Source: Myxococcales bacterium (lineage in GTDB: Bacteria > Myxococcota_A > UBA9042). Taken from it: a DNA stretch of 64,000 nucleotides. Position numbers and translations under genes: made by a program. Where the stretch lies: NCBI GenBank assembly GCA_037441385.1, contig JBBISH010000004.1, positions 1 to 64,000 of the forward strand, given 5' to 3'. This document shows positions 11,721 to 50,880 of this stretch, piece after piece (the first letter of the stretch is position 1; each line of letters starts with the position of its first letter). The notes under the pieces were generated by a model. The model had not been told where the DNA came from. It searched no databases and worked only from the letters and a program-made list of their open reading frames with translations.

Positions 11721-12002
11721 CCGGGCAGGCTTTCGCTCCGGATCGCTCGGATTGCGCACTAGGTGGCGACAACACCAGGGACGCGAGCCCCCAATGCGGA
11801 GGCCGCCGTCGCTCGCGTGTCTAGGAATGCGGTGCGAGATCCGCTAAAGTATTGCGCTGTCTGCCCGCGCCGGACCCCTGGGACCGCGCGCAGCTCGATG
11901 GCCCGGCGCCCGACCCCGCGGGCGGCGCCCCTTGTGCATAGAGACGACCCTGAGGCGGCCCGGCAGCCGGGCCCTGGGGCACGATCGCTGCGGAGCTGGA
12001 AG

Positions 12003-15000
12003 ATGAAGCAATTTTGGCGCTACCCCCTGACCTTTCCGGCCGTCGCAGCCGTCGCCGTGCTGGCGGCCTGCGGCGCGACACCTGGCCACAACGGCGCCAC
12101 GATCACCGCGGTGATCGATACGGGCAGCGATCTCGGCAGCGATCTGAGCTCTGCCAGCGACAGCGAGGGCGACGCGGCTGGGTCCGACGCCACGCCAGGC
12201 GAAGACGCGGACTTTGCGGACAACAGCACCCCCAATGCCGACGCCGGGGACGATACCAGCGCAGACGCGGCCGCCGACGATGGCGCGGAACCTGCAGATG
12301 GGTCTGGCGATACCGCTCAGGGGGACAGCGAGGCCGGGGATGCGGTCGCCACGGACGCCAACGTGAGCGACGCCGTCGCGACCGATGCCACTACGGGCGA
12401 CACGGCCACCGGCGACGCGGCCGCCGATGCTGTGCCCCAAGCGGACAGCCAGGGCGATGCCGCAGGCGATACGACCACCAGCCCGGGCCTGTCGGCGCCC
12501 TGCGACAGCGACGACGACTGCCAGGGCAGCGGCACCGGCAAAGTCTGCAACGTGACCACGCACGCTTGCGCCCTGTGCATGGCCAGCAAGGACTGCCCGG
12601 CCGGCGAACTGTGCCAAGGCAACGCCTGCAAGCCGGCGGTGGCGTGCAAGTCCGACACCAACTGCAAGGCGACCAGCCAGGTTTGCGACAAGGCAGAGGG
12701 ACTGTGCGTCAACTGCGCCAGCGACCTGGACTGCGCTGGCGGCAAGTGCGTCGACCACGCATGCCAAGCCGTCAAGACGTGCAAGAGCAGCCTGGACTGC
12801 CCAGCCGTGTGCGACCAAACCGCTGGCGTGTGCGTCCAGTGCAAAGAAAGCGTGGACTGCCCGACCGATCAGGCCTGCTTCTCGGGCACCTGCAAGCCGA
12901 TTCTGTGCAAGGGGCCGCTCTGCTCGGGCGGCAAGTCGTTCTTGTGCAAGGCAGACGGCAGCGGCTACGAGGCCGGCAAGAACTGCGACGACAAGAACGC
13001 GTGCACCGATGGCGACAGCTGCGACACCGGCCTGTGCAAGCCCGGCCCGGCCAAGGTCTGCGACGACCAAAACCCTTGCACAACTGACAGTTGCGACCCA
13101 TTGCTGGGCTGCCAGTTCAAGGCCAACACCGCCGCGTGCGACGACTTGGCGCCATGCACCGAAAACGACGTGTGCAGCGGCGGCGCCTGCGCTGGCAAAC
13201 CCATGGTCTGCGAGGATGGCAAGGTCTGCACCGCCGACGCCTGCAAGGACGGCAACTGCGTCTTTGTGGCCCAAGGCGGCACCTGCGACGACGGCAACGC
13301 TTGCACCACGGGCGACGCTTGCACCGGCGGCGCATGCAAGGGCCCCAACGCCCTGGTCTGCAGTGACGACAACCCCTGCACCATCGACAGCTGCGACACC
13401 GTCAAAGGCTGTACGTTCACGGCCACCAACGGCGCCACCTGCGACGACGGCAACGGCTGCACCACCGGCGACGTGTGCGTCGGCCCGGTCTGCCAGGGCG
13501 TGGGCAAGCAGTGCGGCGATAGCAACCCGTGCACCGACGACGGGTGCAGCGGTGGCGTCTGCTCGTACAAGGCGAACACCAAGGCCTGCGACGACGGCAA
13601 TCCGTGCACGTCCGGCGATGTCTGCACCAACGGTTCGTGCGCAGGGATGCTGGGCGGCTGCGACGACAAGAATCCTTGCACCACCGACGCTTGCCTATCG
13701 GTCGGCTGCCAGCACACGTCCAACACCGAGCCCTGCGACGACGGCGACGCCTGCACCACCCCCGACGTGTGCAGCGGCGGCGTCTGCGCCAGCAAGCCCA
13801 AGAACTGCGACGACGCCAACGAGTGTACCAGCGACTCGTGCAAAGCCGGCGTCTGCCAGTACGCACCCGTCGACGGGTCCTGCGGCGGCCCCGGCGCGTG
13901 CTCGGTGTGCCAGGCGGGCAAGTGCGCCGCCAGCGCCAAAGGCTTCGAGGACACGTATGGCGGCGCCAACACCGACAAATTCTACGGCGTGGCCGCCACC
14001 GCCGACGGCGGCTTCCTGGCCGCGGGCTCTACCGCCTCCAAGGGCGCGGGCAACGACGACGGCTGGCTGGTCAAGCTGGATGCGACCGGCAGCCTCTTGT
14101 GGGAGAAGACGTTCGGTGGCACGGGCTCGGACTCGTTCGCCGGCATCACGCCCATGGGCAACGGCAACTTCGCGCTGGTCGGCACCAACTCGTCCAAGGG
14201 CAACGGCAACCAGGTTTGGCTGGTCGTCGTGGATGCATCGGGCGGTCTAGTCAACGGCATCGACAAGGTATTCGGCAGCTCGTACAGCGACATGGGCCGG
14301 GCGGTCGCCGTCAATTCGGCGGGCCTGCTGATCGCGGGGCAGAAACAAGTCTACGCGTCGCAAAACTACTACCCCAACTACGGCTGGTTGCTGCAGGTCG
14401 ACCCCACGGGCAACCTATTGTGGGACAAGGACTTGACCAACATGATCGACACCGCAGGGGTGGTGGCGATCGGCGACCAGAGCGTGGTCCTGGGCCATGG
14501 CAACACGACGGCCACCAATACGCAGGACATCATCCTGCAGCGGTTGAAGTCGGGAGGGGCGCAGGTATGGACGGTGACGATCGGCAGCACGCCCACGGAC
14601 TCCGGGCGCGAGCTCGCACTGCTGAGCGACGGCAGCCTGCTGGTCAGCGGCCGCCTGGGCTACAACTACACCGAGGCGACCTTTGTCGGCCGCTACGACG
14701 GCACCGGCAAACAGCTGTGGAAGTCGAACGACGCCAACCTGACGGGCGACCTGAACGCAGTGATCGAGTCGGGCAAATCGCTGATTTTGGCTGGCAATGT
14801 GCGCTCGAACTCGCAGTGGGATGGCCGCTTGGTCGGCCTGGATCTGGCCACCGGCTCGACGCTATGGACCCAGACCTTGGCCTTCAGTGCCACCTACGAC
14901 GACCAGTTCTTTGGCGCCATCCCCTTTGGCGGCGGCGCAGCCGTGGTGGGCGCGGCCTATGTGGGCAACGGTTCGAGCCACGACGGCTGGCTGATGGTCG

Positions 15001-15401
15001 TCAACGACCAGGGCAAGATGGCGTGCGAGTGCGACACCAAATGCGACGACGGCAACTCCTGCACCCTAGACACCTGCTACGCCGGGACGTGCAAGTCCAA
15101 GCCCGCCGCCAGCGGCACGTTCTGCCTGACCACCAGCGCCGCCCCGGGGACCTGCAACAGCAGCCAGCAGTGCGTGTCGACGTGCGGCAACGGCACGTGC
15201 ACCAGCGGCGAGACGATCTACAACTGCCCACAGGACTGCAAAGTGACGGTCGCGCATCCCTGCGACAACTTCTGCGGCGCGAAAAACACGACCTACGGCT
15301 GCTACTGCGATGCCTTGTGCAAAACCCAGGGCGATTGCTGCCAGGCCAGCGGCGCCAAGGGCTACAGCTGCGCCGGGTCGACCTGCTCGATCTGCAAGTA
15401 G
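12003..15401 (+). CDS. Large Cys-rich surface lipoprotein: acidic linker, CDDGNxCT repeats, beta-propeller-like region, C-terminal somatomedin-B-like domain
   Basis: Lipobox LAAC; Asp/Ala-rich spacer; more than 10 CDDxNxCTxDxC repeats; WEKTFGG-type propeller repeats; CDNFCG...CYCDALCKTQGDCC. Confidence 0.85.
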   Translation: MKQFWRYPLTFPAVAAVAVLAACGATPGHNGATITAVIDTGSDLGSDLSSASDSEGDAAGSDATPGEDADFADNSTPNADAGDDTSADAAADDGAEPADGSGDTAQGDSEAGDAVATDANVSDAVATDATTGDTATGDAAADAVPQADSQGDAAGDTTTSPGLSAPCDSDDDCQGSGTGKVCNVTTHACALCMASKDCPAGELCQGNACKPAVACKSDTNCKATSQVCDKAEGLCVNCASDLDCAGGKCVDHACQAVKTCKSSLDCPAVCDQTAGVCVQCKESVDCPTDQACFSGTCKPILCKGPLCSGGKSFLCKADGSGYEAGKNCDDKNACTDGDSCDTGLCKPGPAKVCDDQNPCTTDSCDPLLGCQFKANTAACDDLAPCTENDVCSGGACAGKPMVCEDGKVCTADACKDGNCVFVAQGGTCDDGNACTTGDACTGGACKGPNALVCSDDNPCTIDSCDTVKGCTFTATNGATCDDGNGCTTGDVCVGPVCQGVGKQCGDSNPCTDDGCSGGVCSYKANTKACDDGNPCTSGDVCTNGSCAGMLGGCDDKNPCTTDACLSVGCQHTSNTEPCDDGDACTTPDVCSGGVCASKPKNCDDANECTSDSCKAGVCQYAPVDGSCGGPGACSVCQAGKCAASAKGFEDTYGGANTDKFYGVAATADGGFLAAGSTASKGAGNDDGWLVKLDATGSLLWEKTFGGTGSDSFAGITPMGNGNFALVGTNSSKGNGNQVWLVVVDASGGLVNGIDKVFGSSYSDMGRAVAVNSAGLLIAGQKQVYASQNYYPNYGWLLQVDPTGNLLWDKDLTNMIDTAGVVAIGDQSVVLGHGNTTATNTQDIILQRLKSGGAQVWTVTIGSTPTDSGRELALLSDGSLLVSGRLGYNYTEATFVGRYDGTGKQLWKSNDANLTGDLNAVIESGKSLILAGNVRSNSQWDGRLVGLDLATGSTLWTQTLAFSATYDDQFFGAIPFGGGAAVVGAAYVGNGSSHDGWLMVVNDQGKMACECDTKCDDGNSCTLDTCYAGTCKSKPAASGTFCLTTSAAPGTCNSSQQCVSTCGNGTCTSGETIYNCPQDCKVTVAHPCDNFCGAKNTTYGCYCDALCKTQGDCCQASGAKGYSCAGSTCSICK

Positions 15402-15407: not shown

Positions 15408-15470
15408 CCCCAGGTCTGGCCCGAAGATTGGCGAAGTTTTCGCGCCGATTCGGGCGCGATCCGCATCAGG
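15408..15470 (+). repeat. Partial module A repeat between convergent genes
   Basis: GGCCCGAAGATTGGCGAAGTTTTCGCGCCGATT resembles GGCCCGAAGAATTGCCGAAGTTTTCGAGCCGATT at about 24804. Confidence 0.7.
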
Positions 15471-17177: not shown

Positions 17178-17242
17178 ACCCCGATTCGGGCCCGAAGAAA
17201 TGCCGGAGTTATTAAGCCGAAATAGACGGATTCCGTATCAGG
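17178..17242 (+). repeat. Partial module A repeat
   Basis: ACCCCGATTCGGGCCCGAAGAAATGCCGGAGTT...AGCCGAAATAGACGGATTCCGTATCAG. Confidence 0.75.
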
Positions 17243-24699: not shown

Positions 24700-25103
24700 A
24701 TGCGGCAAGAACACCAATCATACGCACCCCACCTGATTCGCGCCTGTACAGCTTTTCTGACCCGTTCTGCAACCGGCGAGAATCAGGCGGGGACCCCGGT
24801 TCGGGCCCGAAGAATTGCCGAAGTTTTCGAGCCGATTTGGACGGAAACCGTATCAGTGGGTCGCAAGCGGGCCCACCAGCGCCCTGCACTGGCGCGACCC
24901 GCCGCGACGTTTGCCCCCAGGACGGGGTGTCTGATCGGTGCCCCAGCGAGCGGATCAATTTGAGTTGTTCGCCGCGCCGCACCCGCCGCAATTGGAGCGG
25001 CGAGTCCCCAACGGGGCGAGCTTGCGACCCACCTGGCAGCGAGAGACCTGACCAGAGCATCCAAGTACTGAACGAGTGTGCAGTAATTGGTCAGGTCTCT
25101 AGG
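24700..25103. repeat. Composite intergenic repeat cluster: module A (24700-24855), REPIN/MITE-like unit (24856-25032), hairpin module C (25040-25103)
   Basis: Perfect 13-bp inverted repeat GTGGGTCGCAAGC / GCTTGCGACCCAC. Stems CCCCACCTGATTC / GAATCAGGCGGGG and AGAGACCTGACCA / TGGTCAGGTCTCT. Homologous copies occur elsewhere in the window. Confidence 0.85.
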
Positions 25104-25112: not shown

Positions 25113-26981
25113 CTACCGGCAGCACACGGCGCAAGCGCGCGGACTCTCAAAGTTGTCGGTCTGGTAGGCGGCCCACGTGGCGCCGATGCCGCCGTTGCCC
25201 GAGCAATTGGTGAGCGCGGTCTTGTCCATGCACATGGTGGCGCCCTGCTGGCCCCACGACTGCCATTCCAGGGCCGAGGTGATGTAGCCGTCGACCATGA
25301 GGGTCCAGCCGCTGGGGCAGGCGTTGCTGCCGAACTTGGTGAAGCACTGGCCGGCCGGGCGCCCAGGGCCCTGGTCGGGTGCGCACACGGCGCACGGCAT
25401 GGCGCTGTTCTGGTAGTGCGAGCAAGTGTGACGATAGCTCCACTCCACGCCGGTCCCTTGGTCGTTGGCCAAGCCGCCTTCCAGGCAGATCACGTCGTTG
25501 GCGCGGCCCCAGGTCTGCCGCTCGACCATCAGGGCCGAAGCACCGGTCGACACTGCCGACCAGCCCGTGCCGCAAGTGCTGCCGCCCCAGTGGATGTAGG
25601 TCTGGCCGCCGGTGAACTGGGCGGGGGTGTAGCCGTTCAGGGTGCCGTCGACGATCAGGTTGCCCTTGACCTGGATCTTCTTGCTCGACAGCGTCTGGAT
25701 GTTGACTGACCAGGTGAAGGTGCCGTCGAAGCCGCCCGAACCGCCGCCGGCCTTGACATCCTTGACGGTGATCGACCACGCGCCTTTGATGTTCTTGCCC
25801 ACCCAATCGCCGTTCATGTCGCCCGAGACGAGCGGCGTGTCCGTGTTGAAGTTGGTGACGAGCGAAGTGCCGGTCTTGCCGCCGTTGAACAGCACATAGG
25901 CGTTGGCCACGCCGGGGGCGTACAGCTCGACTTTGACCCCGGTGAGGTCCGAGTTGGCAATGTTCATGTTGATCCAGATCTTCTGGGCCAAACCGATGTC
26001 TGGGAAGGTCAGCGTGTCGGTCACGCCCGCGCCCAAGCCGTCGGGAATCTTGATGGTGCCGGTGCCCGCCTGCGAGTCGACAAACTGGTTGTTGATCAGG
26101 CCGTTGCTGACCTCGTCGATCCCATCGGCGGGCATATCGCCTTCGACCAGGTCCTGACACGCCAGCGAGCCGTCCGCGTTGTAGCCCTTCATGTACAGGC
26201 CGGTGCCGCACAGCTTGCCCACAGTGGGGATGCCGGGCTTGTTCGCCAAGTCGGCGTAGTCGCCCGTGGTCGCCACCTTGGCCAAGACGGGCTTGTTGGC
26301 CAGATCGGCATAGTCGCCACTGCCCGCGACCTTGGCCAGCGAGGCTGCCTTGACGTAGGCCGAAAGGTCCGTGGTTTTCGCGTAGGCCCCCAGATCAGAG
26401 GTCTTGGCGTAGGCGGCAAGGTCCGCGATCTTGGCGTAGGCGGCCAGGTCGGTGGCCTTGGCGTAGGCCGTCAGGTCGGTCGCCTTGGCGTAGGCCGCCA
26501 AATCCGTGGTCTTGGCATAGGGTTGCAGCACTGCGGCGTCGAGCGCATCGGCCTTGACACAGCCCGAGCACTCCAACGCTTCGGCCACCGCGGCGCGCAG
26601 GGCAAAGAAGGTGGCACCGGCCGGACGGCGCGGCAATTCCGGGTCCGTGGCCACTTGCACGCCGATCCACGCGTTCTGCAGGCTCAGGGCCGCTGGCGAC
26701 AACGGCGTCTTGCTGCCCAACATAATCGAGAATTCGCCGCTTTTGGCCGTGACCGCCAACGGACCTTCCGTCCAGACTGGGCTGCCGCCCACCTCGCTGG
26801 AGTAGATCGACACCGTCATGGCGTACGTCCCATCCGCCGCAGGCCCCCCGCCAGCGGAATAGAGCAGGCCTTCGATCGGCGTGGAAAGGGGCACGGCCGC
26901 CTGGGCCGGGGCCGCGGCGAGCGCGGCTCCCCCAGCCAACGCAAGCGCCGCCAGCCAGTTCGACATCCCGTGTACGCGCAT
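25113..26981 (-). CDS. Secreted fibre-like protein, paralog 1 (shaft repeats, proprotein-convertase P-like domain, C-terminal collagen-IV NC1-like double repeat)
   Basis: Signal peptide AQA; 7 nine-residue DLxAYAKxx units; LAKVAxxGDYADLANKP x2; P-domain-like KGAWSITVKD; C-terminal CAVC x2. GGAGG Shine-Dalgarno. Confidence 0.8.
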   Translation of the reverse strand: MRVHGMSNWLAALALAGGAALAAAPAQAAVPLSTPIEGLLYSAGGGPAADGTYAMTVSIYSSEVGGSPVWTEGPLAVTAKSGEFSIMLGSKTPLSPAALSLQNAWIGVQVATDPELPRRPAGATFFALRAAVAEALECSGCVKADALDAAVLQPYAKTTDLAAYAKATDLTAYAKATDLAAYAKIADLAAYAKTSDLGAYAKTTDLSAYVKAASLAKVAGSGDYADLANKPVLAKVATTGDYADLANKPGIPTVGKLCGTGLYMKGYNADGSLACQDLVEGDMPADGIDEVSNGLINNQFVDSQAGTGTIKIPDGLGAGVTDTLTFPDIGLAQKIWINMNIANSDLTGVKVELYAPGVANAYVLFNGGKTGTSLVTNFNTDTPLVSGDMNGDWVGKNIKGAWSITVKDVKAGGGSGGFDGTFTWSVNIQTLSSKKIQVKGNLIVDGTLNGYTPAQFTGGQTYIHWGGSTCGTGWSAVSTGASALMVERQTWGRANDVICLEGGLANDQGTGVEWSYRHTCSHYQNSAMPCAVCAPDQGPGRPAGQCFTKFGSNACPSGWTLMVDGYITSALEWQSWGQQGATMCMDKTALTNCSGNGGIGATWAAYQTDNFESPRACAVCCR

Positions 26982-27123
26982 GGTTCCTCCCAGATTTTAC
27001 TGCGAATCGGCGCCGCGGAATGCGCAGCCAAGGCAAGTGCGGCCAGCCCAGCATGCTCAGACTAGTGACGGCGATCGCGGCCGTCAATTTTCTTCGGATC
27101 GGCAGTGCTTTGGTGCAACTAGA

Positions 27124-27279
27124 GCACCGATCAGAAACCCAGTCCTGGGGGCAAACGTCGCGGCGGGTCGCGCCAGTGCAGCGCTCTGGGGGGCCCGCTT
27201 GCGACCCACGTGGGGCCAGCGACGCGACCGGCAGAACGATTTGCTGAACAAATGTCCAGTAATTGGTCGAGTCTCTAGG
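27124..27279. repeat. Inverted copy of module B (27124-27209) followed by a copy of module C
   Basis: The reverse complement of 27124-27209 matches 24856-24941 with only a handful of mismatches. CTGAAC..TGT.CAGTAATTGGTC..GTCTCTAGG matches 25068-25103. Confidence 0.88.
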
Positions 27280-28193: not shown

Positions 28194-28913
28194 TTAGTTG
28201 CGCAGTCGATCTGGACGACGCGCAGCCTGCAAGGGACGTTCGGCCACCTCGACCACGGCCTCGGCGAACGCGGCCGCCGCCGCCTCGACCTCGGGCAGAC
28301 TGCCGGTCAAGTAGGCGCCGCCAAAGTTGGTCTCGGTCGGCGGCCCAAAGAACTGGCACAGGCGCACGTCGGCCGCCTTTAGGGCAGCGTCCAGGGCCAC
28401 CATCGCCTCGACCGGCGGCGCAATCAGGTAGGCGAGCGGCTCGCCACGGGAAATCCCGGCCAGACGGCTGAGGTAGCGCCCTGTCTCTGGGATGACGTGG
28501 GGAAAAAACGATACCGGCTGTGCGGCCTTGCCAGGCTTGTAGAAACAAGCGTGGCGGAGCAGGTAGTCGCGCAGCGCGCCCAGCCCTTCGGCCACTTCGT
28601 CGGGATCGGGACCGGCCAACACGCCCAGGATCTCGCCCGACAGCGGCCCCGACGAGTTGCCCGAGCCGGCGTAGAAGCTCCGCGCGTAGATCACTTCCAC
28701 ATCCGCAAACTTGGTCGCGTGATCCAAGGCGGCGTAGGTCGAATCATCTTGGTCCGCGGTCACCAATCCCAGCGACGCGTGACGGTCGCCCGCGCCCAGC
28801 TTGGCCGCCAAGGCTGGGTTGGCATTGGGAATCAGCCGGCAACTGAGCAGGGTCGGCAGGATGGGCGTCAGCCCCTGCGGCAACCACGCCGGTTCGATGC
28901 GGGAACTGTCCAT
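28194..28913 (-). CDS. eutL: Ethanolamine utilization microcompartment shell protein EutL (BMC-T)
   Basis: SLGLVTADQDD; YARSFYAG; GE; YLIAPP.EA..ALDAALKAADV; PPTETNFGG. Confidence 0.92.
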   Translation of the reverse strand: MDSSRIEPAWLPQGLTPILPTLLSCRLIPNANPALAAKLGAGDRHASLGLVTADQDDSTYAALDHATKFADVEVIYARSFYAGSGNSSGPLSGEILGVLAGPDPDEVAEGLGALRDYLLRHACFYKPGKAAQPVSFFPHVIPETGRYLSRLAGISRGEPLAYLIAPPVEAMVALDAALKAADVRLCQFFGPPTETNFGGAYLTGSLPEVEAAAAAFAEAVVEVAERPLQAARRPDRLRN

Positions 28914-28925
28914 GGCGACTCCTGC

Positions 28926-29885
28926 CTACCAGGTCCGCTGCGGGGCAGCCACGGCCAAGCCGCCCTGCCCCAACTCGCGCGCCTTCTTCAGAATCTCGGC
29001 CGCTTGCCGCGCCGCTTCGTCGACCGAGAGGCCCAGCGGCCGCACGTTGCTGATGCAGTTCTTCTCGGCATTGTCTTGGCCGATCTTGGGATTGTAGGCC
29101 AGGTACAGCGACAGCGAGTCGCCGGTGCCGAGCCCGGGCCTCTCGCCCAAGCCGATGACGGTGGCCTTGGCGCCCAGCTCCACGCCGATCTGGTCGGCGA
29201 CGGCAATGCGCGCGCGATGCACGTAGATGGGCCGGCCGGTGCTGAAACCCACCCGGGCCATTTCGCGCTGCAGGGCGGCGACCAGGCCGGGGTTGCGCTC
29301 GGCGGCCCAGGCGCTCAGGCCGTCGGCCAGGATGATCTGCACGTCCACGCCACGGGTGCCCTCTGTGCGGAGCCGCCCGAGCGAGGCGGCATCGAGGGTA
29401 CGCCCCAGGTTGGGTTGCAGCAAAAACGTCTCAAGATCGGCGGCTTGCGAATGGAGTTCGACGGCACCCAGCTGACTGACAAAGCCCTTGGTCGGGACAC
29501 TGGCCACCGCCTCTTTGGCCGTGCCGTGGTCGGCGCGCAGCGCCAAATAAGTCTTGGTGGGGTAGCGGAGGCCAGCACGGCCCACGCCGATCCGCGAAGG
29601 AGTCGCTTTGGTCAAGCGCGGCAGGGCGGCGCTGTCGGCCAGGCGATCCAAACCGGGCAGCGGTCGCCCGGGTGGCTGCGGCGCCTGAGCCCAAAGCTCG
29701 TGCGCGGCGTCGACGATCATCTGCTCGAGTGCGCGCGGTCGTATCGGCTCGTCATTGGCGTGGGGCGCCGTGGGAGAAACCGCGGAAAGCGCTGGATCTT
29801 CAAGCACCTGCCGCACGATCGCCGCAATCAGCCCGTGCAGTTCTTGGTCGGGCCCGCCCTGTTCCGTGGTCGGCTTGTGCGCCAT
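28926..29885 (-). CDS. eutC: Ethanolamine ammonia-lyase light chain with a predicted encapsulation peptide
   Basis: TPSRIGVGRAG; RADHG.AKEAV; PNLGR; DVQIILADGLS; GERPGL; CISN. Confidence 0.93.
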   Translation of the reverse strand: MAHKPTTEQGGPDQELHGLIAAIVRQVLEDPALSAVSPTAPHANDEPIRPRALEQMIVDAAHELWAQAPQPPGRPLPGLDRLADSAALPRLTKATPSRIGVGRAGLRYPTKTYLALRADHGTAKEAVASVPTKGFVSQLGAVELHSQAADLETFLLQPNLGRTLDAASLGRLRTEGTRGVDVQIILADGLSAWAAERNPGLVAALQREMARVGFSTGRPIYVHRARIAVADQIGVELGAKATVIGLGERPGLGTGDSLSLYLAYNPKIGQDNAEKNCISNVRPLGLSVDEAARQAAEILKKARELGQGGLAVAAPQRTW

Positions 29886-40980: not shown

Positions 40981-43029
40981 CTACGGCTTGTCGTTGGGGG
41001 CGCACAGGTACTTGGTGGTCGAGTAGCTGCAAGTGCCGTCGTTGAACTGGATGTTGTTCGGGTCCCAGTTGTACATCGACAGCCAGCAGTTGGCGCCGTA
41101 GTCGCCGTTGGGCTCGCTGTAGGTCGAGTCGCGCAACCACCACTTGCCGCCGTCTGCCACCTTCCAGTCCGCGCAGCCCGAGCCGTAGGCCTTGGGATCG
41201 CGCATGACGCAGCCGGTGTAGCTGCCCGAGCCAGAGTCGCGGTAGACGCCCGGGATGGTGGCGAAGTAGCTGGTGCCGTACTTGTTCAGCATGGCGGTCC
41301 ACTGGCCCTTGGTGCGCGGATAGACGATGTCCCAGCCGTAGTCCTTGCAGCTATTGTCGTCGGTGGACTTGTAGGTGGTCTTGCCCGAGTCGATGGGCAA
41401 GTAGGTGTAGCCGCCGCCGTCGGTGGTCATGTCGCAGAACACCTGGAATACCTGGCCCTTGGGCGCTTTGACCCAGAAGCTGCCGTCTTTGGCCGTGGCC
41501 CCGTCGTTGGTCCAGCTCTTCTGGATGTCCAGACACGAAATGCCGGGCTTGGCCTTGATGAGACCCAGCGAGGCGATGCACGTGGAGCTGCAGCCGTCGC
41601 CGTTGGCGTTGTTGCCGTCGTCGCATTCTTCGTTGACGTCCAAGATGCCGTTGCCGCAGCTGTCGGCCAAGGTTTTCCACACGGTGCCATCGCAATAGCG
41701 CAGGGTCTTGGCGGTCTTGTCGAAGTACATGGCGCCCATCGTAGAGGGCTGGCACGGCACGGGCGCCGAGGTGGCCGGCGTCATCACCAAGGCCCCCGAC
41801 ACGGAAACCTTCTTGCTGGACAGGGTGTTGACGGTGATGGTCCAGCTGTTCAGCGCGCCGTCCGTCTTGGGATTGCCCGTGGCGGCGGCCAAGTCGGCCA
41901 CGTTGATCGACCAACTGCCCTTGGGGTTTTTGCCCACCCAGGTGCTCAAGTCGCCCGACACCAGCTTGTCCGGCGTGGGGTAGGTGGCGACCAGCTTGGT
42001 GCCGGTGCCGCCCTGGTCGTAGAGCTTGTAGGCGGTGCCGGCCGGATCGTAAACGGTGACGCGCACTTTCGAGATGTCGGAGTTGGCCAGGTCGACCGAG
42101 ACGGTCAGGCTTTGGGCGGTGCCGAAATCGGGCACGGTGATGGCGTCGGAGATGCCGGCCGGGAGGTTGTCGGCAATGGCGATCGGCGTGGCCGTGCTGG
42201 GCGCGATTTCGGCGAATTCGGTCGAGAGCAGACCATTGGACACCTCGTTCAGGCCGTCGGGCGGCAGTCCGCCGGCGGTGCAGTCCAAGCTGCCGTCGGC
42301 CTTGATGCCCTTGACGACCAGACCGGTGCCGCAACTGCTGTTGACTTTGGCCATCACGGGTACGTCAAGCAGATCGAGGTAGCTACCCGACTTGGCCACA
42401 GTTGCATACGTAGGCGTATTCTTTAGGTCTTTGTAGTCGCCGGTGCCTGCAACGGCCGCCAGGGCGGCGGCCTTGACGTAGTCGGCCAGATCGGTCGTCT
42501 TGGCAAACCCACTCAAATCTGCGGACTTGGCATACGCCGCCAGATCGCTGGTCTTGGCGTAGCCCTGCAGCAGCGCCGGATCCAAGTGGCCGGCCTTGAT
42601 GCAGCCCGAGCACTCCAGGCCTTCGGCCATCGCGCTGCGAATGGCGAACAGCACGCCGCGGACGGGGATGGTGGGCAGGGGCGCGTCGGTGGCCACCTGG
42701 ACCTGCAACCACCGATCACCGGTGAGCAGCGCCGCGGTCAACGGCGTCTTGGCGCCCAGCACGTGCGAGAACGAGCCGCCCTTGACGGTGATGTTGGTCG
42801 GTCCTTCGGTCCAGACCGGCTGGCCAGCCGCGGCGTCGAGCAGCGAAAACGTCAGCGGGTAGATTCCGTCGCTCACCGGACCGCCGCCGGTCGAAGACAG
42901 CGCGCCCTCGATCGCAGTGGTGGTGGGCACCGCCGCGCGGGCCGGGGCCGCAAACAGGCCCACAGCCGACAGCAGCCCCAGGGAAGTGAGAACCTTGGCC
43001 GACAGCGACGAAAAGGTGGAGTTCTTCAT
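40981..43029 (-). CDS. Secreted fibre-like protein, paralog 2 (P-domain; myxobacterial Cys-rich repeat; fibrinogen-like and C-type-lectin-like C-terminus)
   Basis: N-terminal half aligns with paralog 1; CGNGILDVNEECDDGN; FCDMTTDGGGYT; SEPNG...C...FNDGTC....KYLC. Confidence 0.8.
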   Translation of the reverse strand: MKNSTFSSLSAKVLTSLGLLSAVGLFAAPARAAVPTTTAIEGALSSTGGGPVSDGIYPLTFSLLDAAAGQPVWTEGPTNITVKGGSFSHVLGAKTPLTAALLTGDRWLQVQVATDAPLPTIPVRGVLFAIRSAMAEGLECSGCIKAGHLDPALLQGYAKTSDLAAYAKSADLSGFAKTTDLADYVKAAALAAVAGTGDYKDLKNTPTYATVAKSGSYLDLLDVPVMAKVNSSCGTGLVVKGIKADGSLDCTAGGLPPDGLNEVSNGLLSTEFAEIAPSTATPIAIADNLPAGISDAITVPDFGTAQSLTVSVDLANSDISKVRVTVYDPAGTAYKLYDQGGTGTKLVATYPTPDKLVSGDLSTWVGKNPKGSWSINVADLAAATGNPKTDGALNSWTITVNTLSSKKVSVSGALVMTPATSAPVPCQPSTMGAMYFDKTAKTLRYCDGTVWKTLADSCGNGILDVNEECDDGNNANGDGCSSTCIASLGLIKAKPGISCLDIQKSWTNDGATAKDGSFWVKAPKGQVFQVFCDMTTDGGGYTYLPIDSGKTTYKSTDDNSCKDYGWDIVYPRTKGQWTAMLNKYGTSYFATIPGVYRDSGSGSYTGCVMRDPKAYGSGCADWKVADGGKWWLRDSTYSEPNGDYGANCWLSMYNWDPNNIQFNDGTCSYSTTKYLCAPNDKP

Positions 43030-43072
43030 GCCGCACAGCCTAGCGCGGCCGCCAGCATAGGACAAGGAAGGA

Positions 43073-46686: not shown

Positions 46687-48492
46687 CTACTTGCCGACCA
46701 TCCACGCGTAGTAGCGGTCGTAGTCCCACTCTAGACCGGTGCCCGTCAAGTCCAAGCTGCCGCTGGCAAATCCGGCCCACAGGCGATGCATGTTGTAGGT
46801 CGACGCCAAGAAGTAGGGCGCGGTCTTGAGGACCAACGTGGACGACGTGTTGGCCGGGAACGTGACATTTTGACAATTGGTGTTGACCGTGTTGGTGGTC
46901 AGGGTCCAGACGGCCATGCCATTGAGGGCCAAGCTGGCGCCGTAAGTGGCGTTCATCGAAGAGTAATTGGCGCAGATGCTGCGCGTGACGGCGGCGGCGG
47001 TCGGATTCTTGATAAAGACCACCACATACTGCCGGCTGTGGTCGGTGCTGGACGAGGTGTAGCCAAGACCGCGATGAAACTGGATGTTGCCCTTGCTGTC
47101 GGCCCAGTGCAGTTCGCTCACGGCGTTGTGCAAGGCGGCATTGTCGCTGTAGGGCACGGCGGCGGCCGTGTCGTACTTGGTGCCCACCAGGGCGTTGCCG
47201 GCCATGGCGTCGATGTATTCGCCGTACAGGACCGGTCGCGAGCCGGCCGGGAACAGCAGCCGCGCCTGGGCCGAAGCGCCCACCGTTAAGTTGCCGGTCA
47301 CGCTCAGGTCGCCCGTGATGGTTTGATTGCCGGTCAGGTTGACCGCACCATTGACCGCCAGCTTGGACTTGGAGTTGGTCACGATCTTGAGCGACCAAGT
47401 GAACTTGCCATCGTCCGCGGTAGCGACATTGTCCAGGACATCGCGCACGACCAGCGACCAAGTGCCCTTGAGGTCCTTGCCCAGCCAATCCGCGTTGAGG
47501 TCGCCGCTGACCAGGCCCAAGTCCTGATTGAAATTGACGGTCATCGTCGTGCCGGTCTTGCTCCCGTCGTACAAAACGTACGGCGTGGCGTTGCCCGGCG
47601 CGTACAAGTCGACCTTGACCTTGGACACATCGCTATTGGTCGCGGTAAAGGCGATCCACAGCTGCTGCGTGTTGCCCGTAGAGGGTACGGTGATGGTGTC
47701 GGTCACGCCAGCGCCCAGGCCATCGGGGATGCCCTTGTTGGTCGAACCGGCAAAGCTGTCTGTGAATTGGGTCGAGAGGACGCCATTCGAGATCTCGTCC
47801 AAGCCGTCTGCGGGCAGGCCGCTGGCCGAGATGGCGCTGGTCGCGCACTCGTAGCTGCCGTCGGCCAAGATGCCTTTCATGACCAAGCCGGTGCCGCATG
47901 ACTTGCCCACTTTGGCCAAGACGGGAACGCCCTTGAGGTCGCCAAAGTTGCCGGTACTGGCCACGTCGGACAGCGTGGCCACCTTGGCGTACTGGGCGAG
48001 ATCGGTGGCCAGGGCAAAGCCGCTCGTCACCTCGGGAGCGAGTTGCTTGAGGCCAATGCAGCCCGAGCAGTCCACCGACTCGGACACAATGGTTCGGACT
48101 GAAAACGGCACGGATGTCAGTTGCTTGCGCGCCAGCTCCGGCTCTTGGCCCACGGCGATCCCTACCCAAGCCGCCGAGGCCATGACCGAGGGCGGCAAGG
48201 CCTTGGTCACGCCCAAGTTGGCAGAGAACATGCCGTTCTTGATGCCGACGGTCAGCGGCCCCTCGAACCAGAGCGGGGTGCCGCCCGACTGATCCTTGTA
48301 CAGCGCGAAGGTGAGGTCGTAGGCGCCGTCTGGGGCAGCGCCGCCCGACGAGGTGATGGCCCCGGTCACGCCAAGGACGCTGGGGGCCGAGGCCAGGGCT
48401 TCGCGGGAGCCGGCCAGGCTGGCGAAAGCGACGAGCGTCATTGTGAGCACCAGCGACCACGACGGGAAACGCTGCAGGATCTTGGACATCAT
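46687..48492 (-). CDS. Secreted fibre-like protein, paralog 3 (P-domain; beta-strand shaft repeats; unknown C-terminal domain)
   Basis: Same chassis (DGAYDLTFALY...GG.PLW.EGP; DCSGCI; CGTGLVMKG; LPADGLDEISNG); VNLTGNQTITGDLSVTGNLTVG repeats. Confidence 0.8.
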   Translation of the reverse strand: MMSKILQRFPSWSLVLTMTLVAFASLAGSREALASAPSVLGVTGAITSSGGAAPDGAYDLTFALYKDQSGGTPLWFEGPLTVGIKNGMFSANLGVTKALPPSVMASAAWVGIAVGQEPELARKQLTSVPFSVRTIVSESVDCSGCIGLKQLAPEVTSGFALATDLAQYAKVATLSDVASTGNFGDLKGVPVLAKVGKSCGTGLVMKGILADGSYECATSAISASGLPADGLDEISNGVLSTQFTDSFAGSTNKGIPDGLGAGVTDTITVPSTGNTQQLWIAFTATNSDVSKVKVDLYAPGNATPYVLYDGSKTGTTMTVNFNQDLGLVSGDLNADWLGKDLKGTWSLVVRDVLDNVATADDGKFTWSLKIVTNSKSKLAVNGAVNLTGNQTITGDLSVTGNLTVGASAQARLLFPAGSRPVLYGEYIDAMAGNALVGTKYDTAAAVPYSDNAALHNAVSELHWADSKGNIQFHRGLGYTSSSTDHSRQYVVVFIKNPTAAAVTRSICANYSSMNATYGASLALNGMAVWTLTTNTVNTNCQNVTFPANTSSTLVLKTAPYFLASTYNMHRLWAGFASGSLDLTGTGLEWDYDRYYAWMVGK

Positions 48493-48614
48493 CGATCTTC
48501 CTCCCCGATGGGTGGATGCTAGCATTCGCGGCTCCGCGATGCCAACGCCGGCTGACGCCGCGGCGCAGGCGCAAGAGCGATTGACCCCTTGGCGGCATAG
48601 CCTTAGTCTCGGCA

Positions 48615-49658
48615 GTGGCCCAGCGGCCAAATGGGACGGACGCCGTGTCAGGGACCGTGGTCGACAACCTTCAGCGATTGCAGGCCGTTGGACAATCCAT
48701 CGGGCACAACTTGGCGACGCAGCTGGCGCAATGGTCCGAGCCCGAACGCCGCCGGACGCTGGCCGAACTGGTGGCCCGCGAGTTCTCTGAGGCGTCGCAA
48801 GAAGTGGCGTCGTTGCTGCTGTCTGGCAGTTGGCGCACGCCCGACGACGAACTCGAGCGACGCATCAGCCACCTGTTGGCCTCCAAGAACCTGAGCCCGC
48901 ATGGCACCGATTCTTTTGGGTTCGCCCCGGCCGAGGTCCGCAGCGTGGTCCCCTACCTGGAGTTTCTCTACCGGGTGTGGTTCCGCGCCGAAGTCCACGA
49001 CATCCAGCGTGTACCCGAAGGCCGCTGCCTCCTTATCGCCAATCATTCTGGTCAGTTGCCCTTTGACGGCGTCGTCATCGGCACCTCGCTGCTGCTCGAC
49101 CGCGATCCGCCCAGAATGGCGCGGTCGATGGTCGAGAAGTTCGCCACCTCGCTGCCTTTTTTTGGCACGTTCTGCAACCGCATGGGCCAGGTCACCGGCC
49201 TGCCCGACAACTGCCGTCGCCTGCTAGAAAGCGAAGAGGCCGTGCTGGTGTTCCCAGAGGGCGCCCGCGGGATCAGCAAGCCCTATTCGCACCGCTACCG
49301 AATGACGGCATTTGGACATGGTTTCATGCGCTTGGCCCTGGAGAGTCAGGTTCCGATCGTGCCCATCGCGGTCGTGGGGGCCGAGGAGCAGACCGTCAAC
49401 TTGGTCAACGTGGCGCCGCTGGCCAAGCTGCTGAACATGCCGTCGGCGCCGCTGACCCCGCTGATGCCGCTGCTGGGTCCTGTGGCGATGCTGCCGGCGC
49501 CCGTGAAGTATCGCGTCTACTTTGGCGAACCCATGGAATTTACCGGCGATGCCAACGACGACGATGCGGTGGTGGCGGGCAAGGTCGCCAAGGTGCGGGC
49601 CGCTATCCAGGCGATGATGGACAAAGGGTTGGCCGAGCGACGCGGCATCTTCATCTAG
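48615..49658 (+). CDS. Lysophospholipid acyltransferase family (PlsC-like)
   Basis: NHSGQLPFD; VFPEG; GFMRLAL; PIVP. Start codon uncertain. Confidence 0.88.
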   Translation: MAQRPNGTDAVSGTVVDNLQRLQAVGQSIGHNLATQLAQWSEPERRRTLAELVAREFSEASQEVASLLLSGSWRTPDDELERRISHLLASKNLSPHGTDSFGFAPAEVRSVVPYLEFLYRVWFRAEVHDIQRVPEGRCLLIANHSGQLPFDGVVIGTSLLLDRDPPRMARSMVEKFATSLPFFGTFCNRMGQVTGLPDNCRRLLESEEAVLVFPEGARGISKPYSHRYRMTAFGHGFMRLALESQVPIVPIAVVGAEEQTVNLVNVAPLAKLLNMPSAPLTPLMPLLGPVAMLPAPVKYRVYFGEPMEFTGDANDDDAVVAGKVAKVRAAIQAMMDKGLAERRGIFI

Positions 49659-50750: not shown

Positions 50751-50880
50751 TATTTCGGCTCGAAAACGCCGACGATTCTTCGGGCCCGAATCGGGGTCCC
50801 CGCCTGATTCTCGCCAGTTGCAGAACGGGTCAGAGAAGCCGTATAGCCGCGAATCAGGTGGGGCGCGTATAGGTTGGGGT
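50751..50880 (-). repeat. Near-complete inverted copy of repeat module A
   Basis: The reverse complement aligns colinearly with 24710-24836 (CCCCACCTGATTCGCG...CTGACCCGTTCTGCAAC.GGCGAGAATCAGGCGGGGACCCCG.TTCGGGCCCGAAGAAT). Confidence 0.88.

What the first reader, a model, noticed from the sequence alone, without database searches (positions are those of the whole stretch)
25113..25610. Collagen-IV NC1 / spongin short-chain collagen-like double domain in a bacterial protein
Seen in sequence: two internal repeats, TYIHWGGSTCGTGWSAVSTG...ICL...PCAVC and CFTKFGSNACPSGWTLMVDGY...MCM...RACAVC. Established knowledge: animal collagen IV C4/NC1 subdomains come as tandem pairs with CP.GW..L..GY and a terminal C.VC, and spongin short-chain collagens have Y.RWG...C and PCAVC. 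Inference: this is a bacterial homolog of a domain usually regarded as an animal extracellular-matrix hallmark, here used as a fibre tip or trimerisation cap.
Basis: partly seen in the sequence, partly recalled or inferred. Interest (0 to 1): 0.75.

Follow-up and report, generated by a model that had tools for sequence, protein, structure and literature searches.

The report
Bacterial collagen-IV-like NC1 head domain
A secreted protein of a myxobacteria-like bacterium ends in a compact, duplicated, cysteine-rich domain related to the end-cap of animal spongin and basement-membrane collagens, a domain thought to be an invention of animals and their closest relatives.

Summary
Window 25113-25610 (minus strand) encodes the last 165 aa of a 622-aa secreted protein (25113-26981). 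Its two ~80-aa halves are related (BLASTP E=1e-8).

- Pfam C4 does not match.
- A four-member bacterial subfamily profile matches animal 'short-chain collagen C4-like' (spongin-type) proteins (hhalign 97.3%, E=2e-11).
- Bacterial profiles put collagen IV NC1 chains first in PDB, but weakly (3.7e-6 to 0.08).
- An AlphaFold model from 124 sequences hits only collagen IV NC1 chains (Foldseek E=2.5e-4, TM ~0.5). A 19-sequence model gave nothing significant.

New context: the domain is one of about 18 interchangeable C-terminal heads on a constant ~450-aa N-terminal part, in a Myxococcota family of at least 363 proteins. Two paralogs with other heads lie in this window. One relative carries a collagen triple helix before the same head. 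High-GC myxobacterial MAGs encode lipoprotein-collagen-NC1-like proteins.

A homotrimer is predicted (0.79 against 0.00 for controls), possibly from memory of solved NC1 trimers.

Most likely it is a trimerising, possibly ligand-binding, fibre head. I rate it a new variant of a known kind.

The parts
25113..26981 (-). Whole gene: 622-aa secreted modular protein (P0002); stop codon at 25113-25115
   Evidence: ORF list and translation. 363 homologues of the N-terminal part.
26898..26981 (-). Residues 1-28: Sec-type signal peptide (hydrophobic core, AQA before AVP)
   Evidence: Read from the translation. Inference; no predictor was run.
26535..26897 (-). Residues 29-149: conserved N-terminal domain ending in LECSGC
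   Evidence: 37% identical to the N-terminus of the collagen-bearing relative P0009, E=1e-17. Conserved across the family. No significant PDB match.
26334..26521 (-). Residues ~154-216: tandem 9-aa repeats (AYAKxTDLx; 27-nt period)
   Evidence: the repeat finder family D1. Residues 156-248 match phage family phrog_30808 of unknown function, E=1.4e-9.
26219..26326 (-). Residues ~219-255: two 18-aa repeats (GDYADLANKP)
   Evidence: the repeat finder family D2.
25728..25979 (-). Residues 335-418: P-domain-like beta-sandwich (sub-threshold here)
   Evidence: Pfam P_proprotein E=0.061 here, 3.1e-6 in paralog P0144 and 1.4e-7 in P0123.
25635..25679 (-). Residues ~435-449: conserved junction (KKIQVKGNLIVDG..), where family homology stops
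   Evidence: BLASTP of P0002 against the family members ends at query residue 444-450 in most listed rows. Consensus.
25362..25610 (-). Residues 458-540: NC1/spongin-like subdomain 1 (YIHWGGSTC ... ICL ... PCAVC)
25116..25361 (-). Residues 541-622: NC1/spongin-like subdomain 2 (CFTKFGSNACPSGW ... MCM ... CAVCCR)
40981..43065 (-). Paralog P0144 (694 aa): same N-terminal ~450 aa (47% identity), different head (DUF4215 plus fibrinogen_C-like / phage virion-protein-like)
   Evidence: tblastn; Pfam; phrog_15727 2e-39.
46687..48630 (-). Paralog P0145 (647 aa): same N-terminal part (40% identity), a third head with no Pfam match
   Evidence: tblastn; Pfam.
24856..24946 (.). Downstream arm of a 91-nt inverted repeat that brackets the gene
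   Evidence: the repeat finder I1, 92% complementary. blastn found only these two copies in the window.
27119..27209 (.). Upstream arm of the same inverted repeat

Best explanation
The gene encodes a secreted, fibre-like protein of a Myxococcota-type bacterium.

Its first ~450 residues are a scaffold shared by a large paralogous family: signal peptide, N-terminal domain, 9-aa repeat stalk and a P-domain-like sandwich. The last ~170 residues are an exchangeable head.

In this copy the head is a compact (165 aa), divergent member of the duplicated C4-C4 domain superfamily that caps spongin short-chain collagens and collagen IV (NC1).

Inferred mechanism: three chains associate through the head. 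Subdomain 2 of one chain packs on subdomain 1 of the next to give a six-lobed ring, as in the NC1 trimer. This registers and caps a trimeric stalk and presents a disulfide-stabilised surface for binding an extracellular target.

Shown: homology and fold, family architecture, head swapping. Inferred: secretion, trimerisation, binding role.
For: Homology to the spongin type:
- phmmer of the 165 aa against 1.84 billion representatives gave 18 hits at E<=1e-3. All 17 hits other than the query's own protein carry the same repeated motif set.
- hhalign of the bacterial subfamily (P0003, P0004, P0009, P0017) against 13 named animal short-chain collagen C4-like proteins gave 97.3%, E=2.2e-11 over 132 columns.
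- With P0046 and P0123 added it gave 99.8%, E=1.6e-27.
- By features, the protein-atlas nearest clusters carry C4 in 17% and 14% of members, or are named short-chain collagen C4-like (scores 0.92-0.93).

Link to collagen IV NC1:
- 6 of 7 PDB hits of profile A1 are collagen IV NC1 (3.7e-6 for a triple-NC1 fusion, 0.012 for alpha1).
- 6 of 9 hits of profile A7 are NC1 (best 0.0028).
- Foldseek of the 124-sequence model (pLDDT 74.6, pTM 0.75) gave 11 hits at E<=1e-3. Every listed hit down to rank 40 is collagen IV NC1 (TMq 0.45-0.53). The first other protein appears at E=0.061, TMq 0.23.
- Passages of Fidler 2017 (PMC5395295) state that spongin NC1 is homologous to collagen IV NC1, with 7 shared cysteines.

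Head on a fibre:
- Family homology ends at residue ~445-449.
- 120 tails fall into 18 BLAST clusters.
- Relative P0009 has the same N-terminal domain, then 18 Gly-X-Y triplets, then the same head.
- L003 (Myxococcales MAG, GC 0.68) encodes a lipoprotein signal, 12 Gly-X-Y triplets and a canonical spongin-like head.

Trimer: three copies scored ipSAE 0.79 in 3 of 3 runs, against 0.00 for the best of 3 controls. Contacts agreed in at least 82% and partner pLDDT was 67. The mark was reached by 20 of 30 solved pairs of one chain and 1 of 23 single chains in the tool's calibration, which holds only roughly here. The interface joins residues 86-126 of one copy to residues 1-4, 20-45 and 75-80 of another.

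Bacterial setting: AcrB, TetR, GGDEF, topoisomerase, HisF/IE, EutC and BMC neighbours. GC of the head is 0.687 against 0.666 for the window.
Against: - Pfam C4 finds nothing in the domain at E<=10, nor in 0 of 7 relatives at E<=10, nor in 0 of 17 at E<=0.01.
- phmmer of the single sequence against PDB found only arginine deiminase (0.0075, spurious) and no NC1.
- The animal spongin-type profile A6 found nothing in PDB at E<=1. Profile A5 gave NC1 first, but only at E=0.083.
- The first AlphaFold model (19 sequences, pLDDT 73) gave 0 Foldseek hits at E<=1e-3. NC1 chains stood out only by TM (0.35-0.39 against 0.25 or less).
- In the better model, rmsd to NC1 is about 9 A, and 27 residues have pLDDT below 50.
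- The domain is 165 aa against ~225 for NC1. It has no HSQ motif and lacks 2 of the 10 spongin-type cysteines.
- This protein has no collagen repeats.
- The trimer pass may reflect the model's memory of solved NC1 trimers, and the calibration used two copies, not three.
- No experiment bears on secretion, oligomer state or ligand.
Confidence: 0.72

Rival explanations
1. The head is mainly a recognition module. It is a lectin-like or protein-binding specificity determinant that the cell swaps between paralogs to bind different targets (prey, kin, surfaces). Oligomerisation is provided by the stalk, not by the head.
For: - 18 tail clusters sit on one scaffold.
- Other heads include fibrinogen_C-like, TLDc, phage tail Collar and a phage virion structural protein family, most of which are binding domains elsewhere (established knowledge).
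- There are three paralogs with three different heads within 23 kb of this window.
- The NC1-like head is rare: 3 of 120 tails.
Against: - This is not exclusive of the best explanation.
- A homotrimer of the head alone is predicted.
- In P0009 and L003 the head directly follows a collagen helix, which needs a trimerising nucleus (established for collagen IV NC1).
- No ligand is predicted by any search.
Confidence: 0.3
2. The bacterial domain was acquired from animals (for instance by symbionts of sponges or other invertebrates) and later diverged. It therefore says nothing about the origin of NC1.
For: - Spongin-type proteins are abundant in invertebrates.
- 8 of the 12 'prokaryotic' loci found in genome contigs look eukaryote-like. 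The 7 loci on one 'Nitrospirales' contig and the 1 'Dehalococcoidia' locus have GC 0.41-0.49; 6 of these 8 have low ORF density, and the match in L010 is split over 1078 nt. Host DNA and bacterial bins therefore do mix.
- Leclere 2020 (PMC7058181, passages) favours lateral transfer for another collagen-associated domain found in bacteria.
Against: - The head has the GC content of its genome (0.687 against 0.666).
- The 21 named animal sequences form one side of a single branch (support 91).
- Prokaryote-like sequences occupy several deep branches: a 70-row group holding the 4 named prokaryotes, P0123, P0046, and the long-branch clade of the query.
- High-GC loci from Eisenbacteria, Myxococcales and Myxococcaceae, and a 760-aa archaeal protein, carry the domain.
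- The tree is unrooted and lacks collagen IV, so direction is not shown either way.
Confidence: 0.2
3. The resemblance is convergent. An unrelated, internally duplicated, disulfide-rich domain happens to share CxxC and CPxGW-like motifs with NC1 and spongin.
For: - Pfam C4 does not match.
- HMMER E-values to NC1 are weak.
- Motif-rich, cysteine-rich sequences inflate profile scores.
- Half-to-half orthology with spongin halves is mixed. It is colinear in 2 of 5 bacterial members (P0003, P0046). In 2 of 5 (P0009, P0017) the second half scores better on spongin half 1. It is ambiguous in 1 of 5.
Against: - hhalign E=2.2e-11 over 132 columns covers both halves colinearly.
- 8 cysteine columns are conserved in 122-124 of 124 sequences.
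- Family member P0123 carries a canonical spongin-type head on the same scaffold.
- The fold search returns only NC1.
Confidence: 0.05
4. The variable C-termini are polymorphic toxin domains with cognate immunity genes, as in Rhs/CdiA-type systems.
For: A constant N-terminal part with a sharp junction and many alternative C-termini is the layout of polymorphic toxins (established knowledge).
Against: - The heads that can be named are extracellular binding or assembly domains: NC1-like, fibrinogen_C/COLFI-like, TLDc, Collar.
- Downstream of this gene lie ~490 bp of repeat-rich intergenic DNA and a convergent phosphoesterase gene, with no convincing small immunity ORF.
- The head is disulfide-rich, which suits an extracellular structural role.
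Confidence: 0.03

Closest known systems
C-terminal non-collagenous domain of spongin short-chain collagens ('short-chain collagen C4-like' proteins of sponges, cnidarians, molluscs, brachiopods, echinoderms, amphioxus)
   Same: - Duplicated ~80-90-aa subdomains.
- Y.(R/H)WG...C start and (P)CAVC end in each half.
- 8 shared cysteine columns and no HSQ motif.
- Significant profile-profile match.
- C-terminal position after a stalk. In relatives P0009 and L003 it follows a short collagen helix, exactly as in spongins.
   Different: - 165 aa against ~180.
- Lacks the ECGSLPC cysteine pair, which is present in 113-117 of 124 sequences.
- Has four lineage-specific cysteines (63, 89, 136, 164).
- Only ~22-28% identical to almost all other aligned members; the close relative P0004 is 53%.
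- Sits on a long branch.
- The stalk here is not collagen.
- The host is a bacterium.

That 'C4' in these protein names refers to the sponge clone and not to the Pfam C4 domain is my recollection; no call shows it.
Collagen IV NC1 domain (Pfam C4, PF01413; PDB 1LI1, 1M3D, 5NAX)
   Same: - Tandem C4-C4 arrangement.
- Only significant fold match and top PDB sequence hits.
- Aligned CP.G...Y.GY, C-L, CAVC and CPSGW motifs.
- Predicted head-to-tail trimer interface.
   Different: - Not matched by the Pfam model.
- About 60 residues shorter.
- 4 rather than 6 conserved cysteines per half, and no HSQ motif.
- No long collagen helix.
- Hexamer formation and sulfilimine cross-link were not assessed.
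- Fidler 2017 (passages) says spongins lack the domain-swap region by modelling; whether this head does too was not tested.
Bacterial proteins with the Cthrc1 C-terminal domain behind collagen repeats (Leclere et al. 2020, PMC7058181)
   Same: This is a precedent for an 'animal' collagen-associated C-terminal domain turning up in bacterial metagenomes, sometimes fused to collagen repeats (passages).
   Different: A different domain. That paper models it as C1q-like, and it does not mention spongin (0 occurrences).
Phage tail-fibre / receptor-binding proteins with exchangeable C-terminal tips
   Same: - Constant N-terminal part, repeat stalk and swapped C-terminal heads.
- The stalk repeats match phage family phrog_30808.
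- A paralog's head matches a phage virion structural protein family.
- One family member ends in a phage tail Collar domain.
   Different: - The window's Pfam scan of 41 ORFs found no phage family.
- The protein has a Sec signal.
- The NC1-like head has no match in BFVD viral structures (0 at E<=1e-3).

Membership tests
Collagen IV NC1 / Pfam C4 (PF01413) | Match to the curated Pfam C4 model | tested here: not met
   No C4 hit at E<=10 for P0003 or P0002. 0 of 7 relatives at E<=10. 0 of 17 at E<=0.01.
Collagen IV NC1 / Pfam C4 (PF01413) | Two homologous subdomains in tandem (C4-C4) | tested here: met
   The halves align at E=1e-8. Cysteine spacing is symmetric.
Collagen IV NC1 / Pfam C4 (PF01413) | NC1 fold | tested here: met
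   Foldseek of model 2: 11 hits at E<=1e-3, all NC1, TMq 0.45-0.53, probability 1.00. Model 1 was inconclusive. Model confidence is only moderate (pLDDT 74.6).
Collagen IV NC1 / Pfam C4 (PF01413) | Sequence-profile similarity to solved NC1 chains | tested here: inconclusive
   NC1 is always top-ranked but weak: 3.7e-6 (triple fusion) and 0.012; 0.0028-0.08; 0.083. There was no hit with the single sequence.
Collagen IV NC1 / Pfam C4 (PF01413) | Six conserved cysteines per subdomain and the HSQ motif | tested here: not met
   Only 4 family-conserved cysteines per half, and no HSQ in P0003. The HSQ criterion comes from passages of PMC5395295 and bioRxiv 10.1101/2021.10.08.463732. The figure of six per subdomain is recalled.
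Collagen IV NC1 / Pfam C4 (PF01413) | Follows a long interrupted collagen triple helix | tested here: not met
   The script did not list P0002 among proteins with a run of 6 or more Gly-X-Y triplets. Pfam finds no Collagen repeat.
Collagen IV NC1 / Pfam C4 (PF01413) | Trimer, then head-to-head hexamer with sulfilimine cross-link | tested here: inconclusive
   A trimer is predicted (0.79 against 0.00 for controls), but a like complex is solved. The hexamer and cross-link are not testable with these tools.
Spongin short-chain collagen C-terminal domain | Profile similarity to named animal members | tested here: met
   hhalign 97.3%, E=2.2e-11 and 99.8%, E=1.6e-27. phmmer E=1.6e-9 to 9e-4 to members, over a 1.84-billion library.
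Spongin short-chain collagen C-terminal domain | Ten-cysteine pattern (7 shared with collagen IV plus 3 spongin-specific, per Fidler 2017) | tested here: inconclusive
   8 of the 10 well-conserved cysteine columns are present. The ECGSLPC pair is absent. Four extra cysteines are present.
Spongin short-chain collagen C-terminal domain | Absence of the HSQ motif | tested here: met
Spongin short-chain collagen C-terminal domain | Short collagen helix immediately upstream | tested here: not met
   Absent in P0002. Present in relatives P0009 (18 triplets) and L003 (12 triplets).
Myxococcota modular-head family (P-domain-containing secreted proteins) | Shared N-terminal ~450 aa up to the KGxLIVDG junction | tested here: met
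   363 proteins at E<=1e-3; the listed ones are 34-73% identical over 48-97% of the query. The atlas cluster is Bacteria 100%, commonest Myxococcota.

The most novel reading that the evidence does not exclude
The duplicated C4-C4 (NC1) domain did not arise in the filozoan lineage. It is an old bacterial trimerising head for surface fibres.

Myxococcota and other bacteria already combined it with collagen helices. They also used the same 'stalk plus interchangeable C-terminal head' logic (NC1-like, fibrinogen/COLFI-like) that animals later used for collagen IV, spongins, fibrillar collagens and ficolins.

On this reading the animal domain descends from a bacterial one by transfer into a pre-metazoan ancestor.
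Probability: 0.2. Interest if true: 0.9.

Novelty: new variant of a known kind. Interest (0 to 1): 0.66.

Why it matters
The papers I read treat the NC1/C4 domain as follows:
- It defines collagen IV and spongins, and they are called 'primordial components' of animal tissues, absent from unicellular sister groups (abstract and passages of PMC5395295).
- The C4-C4 arrangement is 'of filozoan origin', and spongins are 'specific of invertebrate metazoans' (passages of PMC5560861).
- Canonical collagen IVs and spongins are restricted to metazoans, and the NC1 domain was detected outside them only in one Ministeria protein (passages of bioRxiv 10.1101/2021.10.08.463732).

Here a bona fide bacterial chromosome carries the duplicated domain. 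Relatives show the full signal-collagen-NC1-like architecture in high-GC myxobacterial genomes.

This makes the origin of the basement-membrane collagen end-cap directly testable: bacterial invention, transfer in either direction, or deep ancestry.

It also offers small, intron-free bacterial versions for structural work on NC1-type trimerisation. And it exposes a large bacterial family with about 18 swappable heads whose biology is unknown.

Five literature searches found no paper describing bacterial NC1 or spongin-type domains. A UniRef entry already names one bacterial protein 'Short-chain collagen C4', so the resemblance is visible to automatic annotation.

Tried and rejected
- Pfam and NCBIfam on the domain and on the whole protein: no family for the head.
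- phmmer against PDB with the single sequence: only a spurious arginine deiminase match.
- Word-indexed homologue search of residues 455-622: only the query itself, 1 of 252 candidates.
- Genome-contig scan with alignment A1: error, no conserved stretch. With A2: 26 pattern matches, 0 confirmed. The window's own genome is apparently not in that collection.
- First AlphaFold model from 19 sequences: no significant Foldseek hit.
- Animal spongin profile against PDB: 0 hits at E<=1. Pfam C4 on 13 animal spongin-type proteins: 0 of 13.
- BFVD viral structures: 0 hits at E<=1e-3. There is therefore no support for a phage-derived NC1-like tip.
- N-terminal family profile against PDB: nothing significant, best 0.012.
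- Half-by-half orthology to spongin halves: mixed, so it does not settle whether the duplication is ancestral.
- Promoter and terminator scan and Rfam on the flanks: 0 promoter-like sites; 3 terminator-like sites against 2.0 expected; 0 Rfam matches at E<=0.1.
- Polymorphic-toxin reading: rejected for lack of an immunity-like ORF and because the heads are structural or binding domains.

- AlphaFold DB fold search, which was not on hand.
- The metagenome contigs and viral contigs collections, which were closed.
- bioRxiv supplements, which were closed (Fig. S3 of the 2021 preprint was not seen).
- Aouacheria et al. 2006, which was seen only as a citation in other papers.
Full report
**1. What is at the coordinates**

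The finding lies on the minus strand. ORF 25113-26981 (-) encodes 622 aa (P0002). Window 25116-25610 (-) gives its last 165 aa (P0003), with the quoted strings. The plus-strand translation of the same stretch is noise.

The two halves (25362-25610 and 25116-25361) align with 23/79 identities, E=1e-8.

P0003 has 12 cysteines. Eight of them (13, 42, 73, 76 and 98, 127, 160, 163) sit at nearly the same spacing in each half and are cysteine in 122-124 of 124 aligned homologues.

**2. First-line annotation fails**

- Pfam and NCBIfam give nothing for the head, even at E<=10.
- phmmer against PDB gives only a spurious arginine deiminase match.
- A word-indexed search of residues 455-622 returns only the query.

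**3. Relatives of the head**

An exhaustive phmmer of P0003 against 1.84 billion representatives gave 18 hits at E<=1e-3:
- the query's own protein, P0002;
- a 54%-identical partial protein (P0004);
- P0009, which has a signal peptide, an N-terminal domain 37% identical to that of P0002 (E=1e-17), 18 Gly-X-Y triplets with a Pfam Collagen match at 7e-9, and then the same double domain;
- P0017, which looks like a lipoprotein;
- three prokaryote-like single-unit proteins;
- eleven multi-unit proteins of unknown origin.

None of the 17 hits other than P0002 matches Pfam C4 at E<=0.01.

A profile of the prokaryote-like subgroup (A3) found 349 proteins.
- Named animal 'short-chain collagen C4-like' proteins score E~1e-50 to 1e-56: the sponge Dysidea, Lingula, Octopus, Anneissia, Dendronephthya and Branchiostoma.
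- Named prokaryotic records also appear: Candidatus Venteria ishoeyi (which UniRef names 'Short-chain collagen C4'), Candidatus Parabeggiatoa and a Myxococcaceae MAG.
- From, there is also a Candidatus Parvarchaeota MAG.

**4. Is the query's domain of that family?**

- hhalign of P0003+P0004+P0009+P0017 (A2) against 13 named animal proteins (A6): 97.3%, E=2.2e-11, 132 columns spanning both halves.
- Adding P0046 and P0123 (A5): 99.8%, E=1.6e-27.
- The protein-atlas feature search independently put clusters with C4 (in 17% and 14% of members) or named short-chain collagen C4-like at the top (0.92-0.93).

**5. Link to collagen IV NC1**

*Sequence evidence is weak but consistent.*
- Profile A1 against PDB: 6 of 7 hits are collagen IV NC1 (3.7e-6 for a triple-NC1 fusion, 0.012 for alpha1(IV)). 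The alignment pairs C-P-x-G, C-L, CAVC and CPSGW.
- Profile A7 (124 sequences): 6 of 9 hits are NC1, best 0.0028.
- Profile A5: NC1 is first, at 0.083.
- Against this, the animal profile A6 finds nothing in PDB at E<=1, and 0 of 13 animal members match Pfam C4.

*Structure evidence depends on alignment depth.*
- The 19-sequence AlphaFold model (pLDDT 73.1) gave no hit at E<=1e-3. NC1 chains stood out only by TM (0.35-0.39 against 0.25 or less).
- The 124-sequence model (pLDDT 74.6, pTM 0.75) gave 11 hits at E<=1e-3.
- Every listed hit down to rank 40 is a collagen IV NC1 chain (E from 2.5e-4, probability 1.00, TMq 0.45-0.53, rmsd about 9 A).
- The next protein is at E=0.061, TMq 0.23.

*Literature.* Passages of Fidler et al. 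2017 (PMC5395295) state that spongins carry an NC1 domain homologous to that of collagen IV. They share seven cysteines, have three spongin-specific ones, and have no HSQ motif. P0003 likewise lacks HSQ. It keeps 8 of the 10 well-conserved cysteine columns and lacks the ECGSLPC pair.

**6. The whole protein and its family**

The full-length search found 363 proteins at E<=1e-3; the best 120, including the query itself, were listed. The listed relatives are 34-73% identical to P0002, in most cases only over the first two thirds of the query.

BLASTP ends at query residue 444-450 in most rows, just after a conserved ..SSKKIQ(V/I)KGxLIVDG junction.

Tails of 60 aa or more (120 of 122 proteins) fall into 18 BLAST clusters. 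Precomputed Pfam labels on the 119 listed relatives are:

| Pfam label | Proteins |
|---|---|
| COLFI | 18 |
| Fibrinogen_C | 7 |
| TLDc | 4 |
| DUF4215 | 4 |
| Collar | 1 |
| P_proprotein | 13 |

The COLFI and fibrinogen matches that I rescanned cover only a short N-terminal part of those models: COLFI profile positions 19-70 of 233, and fibrinogen 15-49 of 221.

Only P0046 and P0123 share the NC1-like head, so 3 of 120 tails carry it. The head of P0123 is of the canonical spongin type.

Several listed members come from single 'Deltaproteobacteria' MAGs (locus tags HY902_*, FJ100_*). The atlas places the scaffold in a cluster that is 100% Bacteria, commonest Myxococcota.

The window holds two more paralogs:
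- 40981-43065 (-), 47% identical, with a DUF4215/fibrinogen-like head that also matches a phage virion structural family at 2e-39;
- 46687-48630 (-), 40% identical, with a head that has no Pfam match.

The scaffold itself has no significant PDB relative. Its repeat stalk matches phage family phrog_30808, of unknown function (1.4e-9).

**7. Setting**

The 64-kb window is ordinary bacterial chromosome: AcrB/MFP/OMF efflux, TetR, GGDEF, topoisomerase, HisF/HisIE, EutC, BMC, O-antigen ligase and ATP-grasp genes. GC is 0.666 for the window, 0.663 for the gene and 0.687 for the head.

No phage gene families were seen in the 41 ORFs scanned. No promoter-like sites, no excess of terminator-like sites and no Rfam match flank the gene.

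**8. Other prokaryotic genomes**

The A3 scan of GTDB species representatives found 12 loci.

Four look truly prokaryotic:
- L001, Candidatus Eisenbacteria, GC 0.70.
- L003, Myxococcales, GC 0.68. It encodes 283 aa: a lipoprotein-type signal, 12 Gly-X-Y triplets and a canonical spongin-like head.
- L011, Myxococcaceae, GC 0.71, 481 aa.
- L002, Nanoarchaeia, GC 0.40, a 760-aa ORF.

Eight are doubtful:
- Seven tandem short collagens lie on one 705-kb 'Nitrospirales' contig (GC 0.43-0.49). Five of the seven have low six-frame ORF density (0.27-0.68; L008 and L009 are at 1.16 and 1.00).
- One 'Dehalococcoidia' locus (GC 0.41, ORF density 0.56) has its match spread over 1078 nt.

These features fit eukaryotic host DNA in a bin.

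The scan uses two exact peptide patterns, so 12 is a lower bound.

**9. Tree**

The tree covers 135 domain rows (one best unit per protein; 4 duplicate cluster members and P0003 were left out beforehand, and one protein with no near-complete unit was dropped). It was built with IQ-TREE in quick mode and is unrooted.
- The 21 named animals lie on one side of a branch (support 91), in a 39-row group.
- The 4 named prokaryotes lie in a 70-row group (support 83).
- The query joins P0004 (97*), and then P0009 and P0017 (95*), on long branches.
- P0046 and P0123 branch separately.

Long-branch warnings apply, and collagen IV is not in the tree.

Half-by-half scoring against animal spongin halves is colinear for P0003 and P0046, reversed for the second halves of P0009 and P0017, and ambiguous for P0004.

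**10. Mechanism**

Three copies of the head are predicted to bind, with ipSAE 0.79 in 3 of 3 runs.
- The best of 3 controls scored 0.00.
- Contacts agreed in at least 82%, and partner pLDDT was 67.
- The mark was reached by 20 of 30 solved one-chain pairs and 1 of 23 single chains in a calibration that used two copies and other alignments.
- The interface joins subdomain 2 of one chain (residues 86-126, 158, 163) to subdomain 1 of a neighbour (residues 1-4, 20-45, 75-80), a head-to-tail ring as in NC1 trimers.
- NC1 trimers are solved, so the pass shows likeness. It does not show that this copy binds.

With the collagen-bearing relatives, this makes a trimerising cap the most economical reading. 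The variety of alternative heads argues that the head also, or instead, sets binding specificity. Secretion is inferred from the N-terminal sequence only.

**11. Literature and novelty**

- Grau-Bove 2017 (passages) calls the C4-C4 arrangement 'of filozoan origin' and spongins 'specific of invertebrate metazoans'.
- The 2021 bioRxiv preprint (passages) finds NC1 only in Metazoa plus one Ministeria protein, and places COLF1 on the choanozoan stem.
- Leclere 2020 (passages) reports a different collagen-associated domain (Cthrc1 C-terminal) in bacterial metagenomes.

Five full-text searches returned no paper describing bacterial NC1 or spongin-type domains. Subscription-only papers are not covered, and the preprint's supplements could not be opened.

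I therefore rate the domain a new variant of a known kind: a divergent bacterial branch of the spongin/NC1 superfamily on a novel non-collagen scaffold. The broader implication, that prokaryotes hold a sizeable and partly collagen-fused repertoire of this 'animal' domain, is what gives it interest.

Noticed in passing
window 40981-43065 (-) and 46687-48630 (-): Two paralogs of the gene lie among housekeeping genes. They share the ~450-aa N-terminal scaffold but carry different C-terminal heads. One is DUF4215 plus fibrinogen_C-like and matches a phage virion structural protein family at 2e-39. The other has no Pfam match.
   Followed up: partly
window 24856-24946 and 27119-27209: A 91-nt inverted repeat (92% complementary; 86 nt at 94% by blastn) brackets the gene exactly, and these are its only two copies in the window. 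A weaker direct repeat (75%) lies at 25013-25103 and 27190-27279. There is no Rfam match. Whether this marks a mobile or recombining cassette is unknown.
   Followed up: partly
window 24781-24856; similar copies at 50755-50809, 11633-11709, 17178-17241, 15408-15469: A dispersed intergenic repeat of about 55-77 nt (78-91% identity) occurs at several gene boundaries in the window.
   Followed up: no
L004-L009 and L012 (one 705-kb contig titled Nitrospirales MAG); L010 (Dehalococcoidia MAG): Seven short collagen plus spongin-type genes lie within about 130 kb (GC 0.43-0.49, 15-35 Gly-X-Y triplets, no signal peptide at the ORF start; low six-frame ORF density in five of the seven). L010 has a match split over 1078 nt. 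Both look like eukaryotic (host) DNA binned into prokaryotic MAGs.
   Followed up: partly
L003 1493-2344 (+) (Myxococcales MAG, GC 0.68): A 283-aa protein with a lipoprotein-type signal, 12 Gly-X-Y triplets and a canonical spongin-type double domain. It is effectively a bacterial 'spongin-like short-chain collagen'.
   Followed up: partly
family members P0027, P0037, P0040 and others: 18 of the 119 listed relatives carry a precomputed Pfam COLFI label (fibrillar collagen C-propeptide), and 7 carry Fibrinogen_C. The matches I rescanned cover only the first ~50 positions of those models. Whether these heads are true COLFI/FReD folds was not tested.
   Followed up: partly
window 11763-15401 (+): A 1212-aa protein combines Dictyostelium-type CTDC repeats (2.6e-14) with a PQQ/BamB-like beta-propeller. 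This is another 'eukaryote-flavoured' extracellular repeat in the same genome.
   Followed up: no
window 28194-29885 (-): A BMC shell protein gene and an ethanolamine ammonia-lyase light chain (EutC) gene lie just upstream of the MBL-fold gene that neighbours the finding.
   Followed up: no
window 1-696 (+): A DDE transposase fragment runs off the window start.
   Followed up: no
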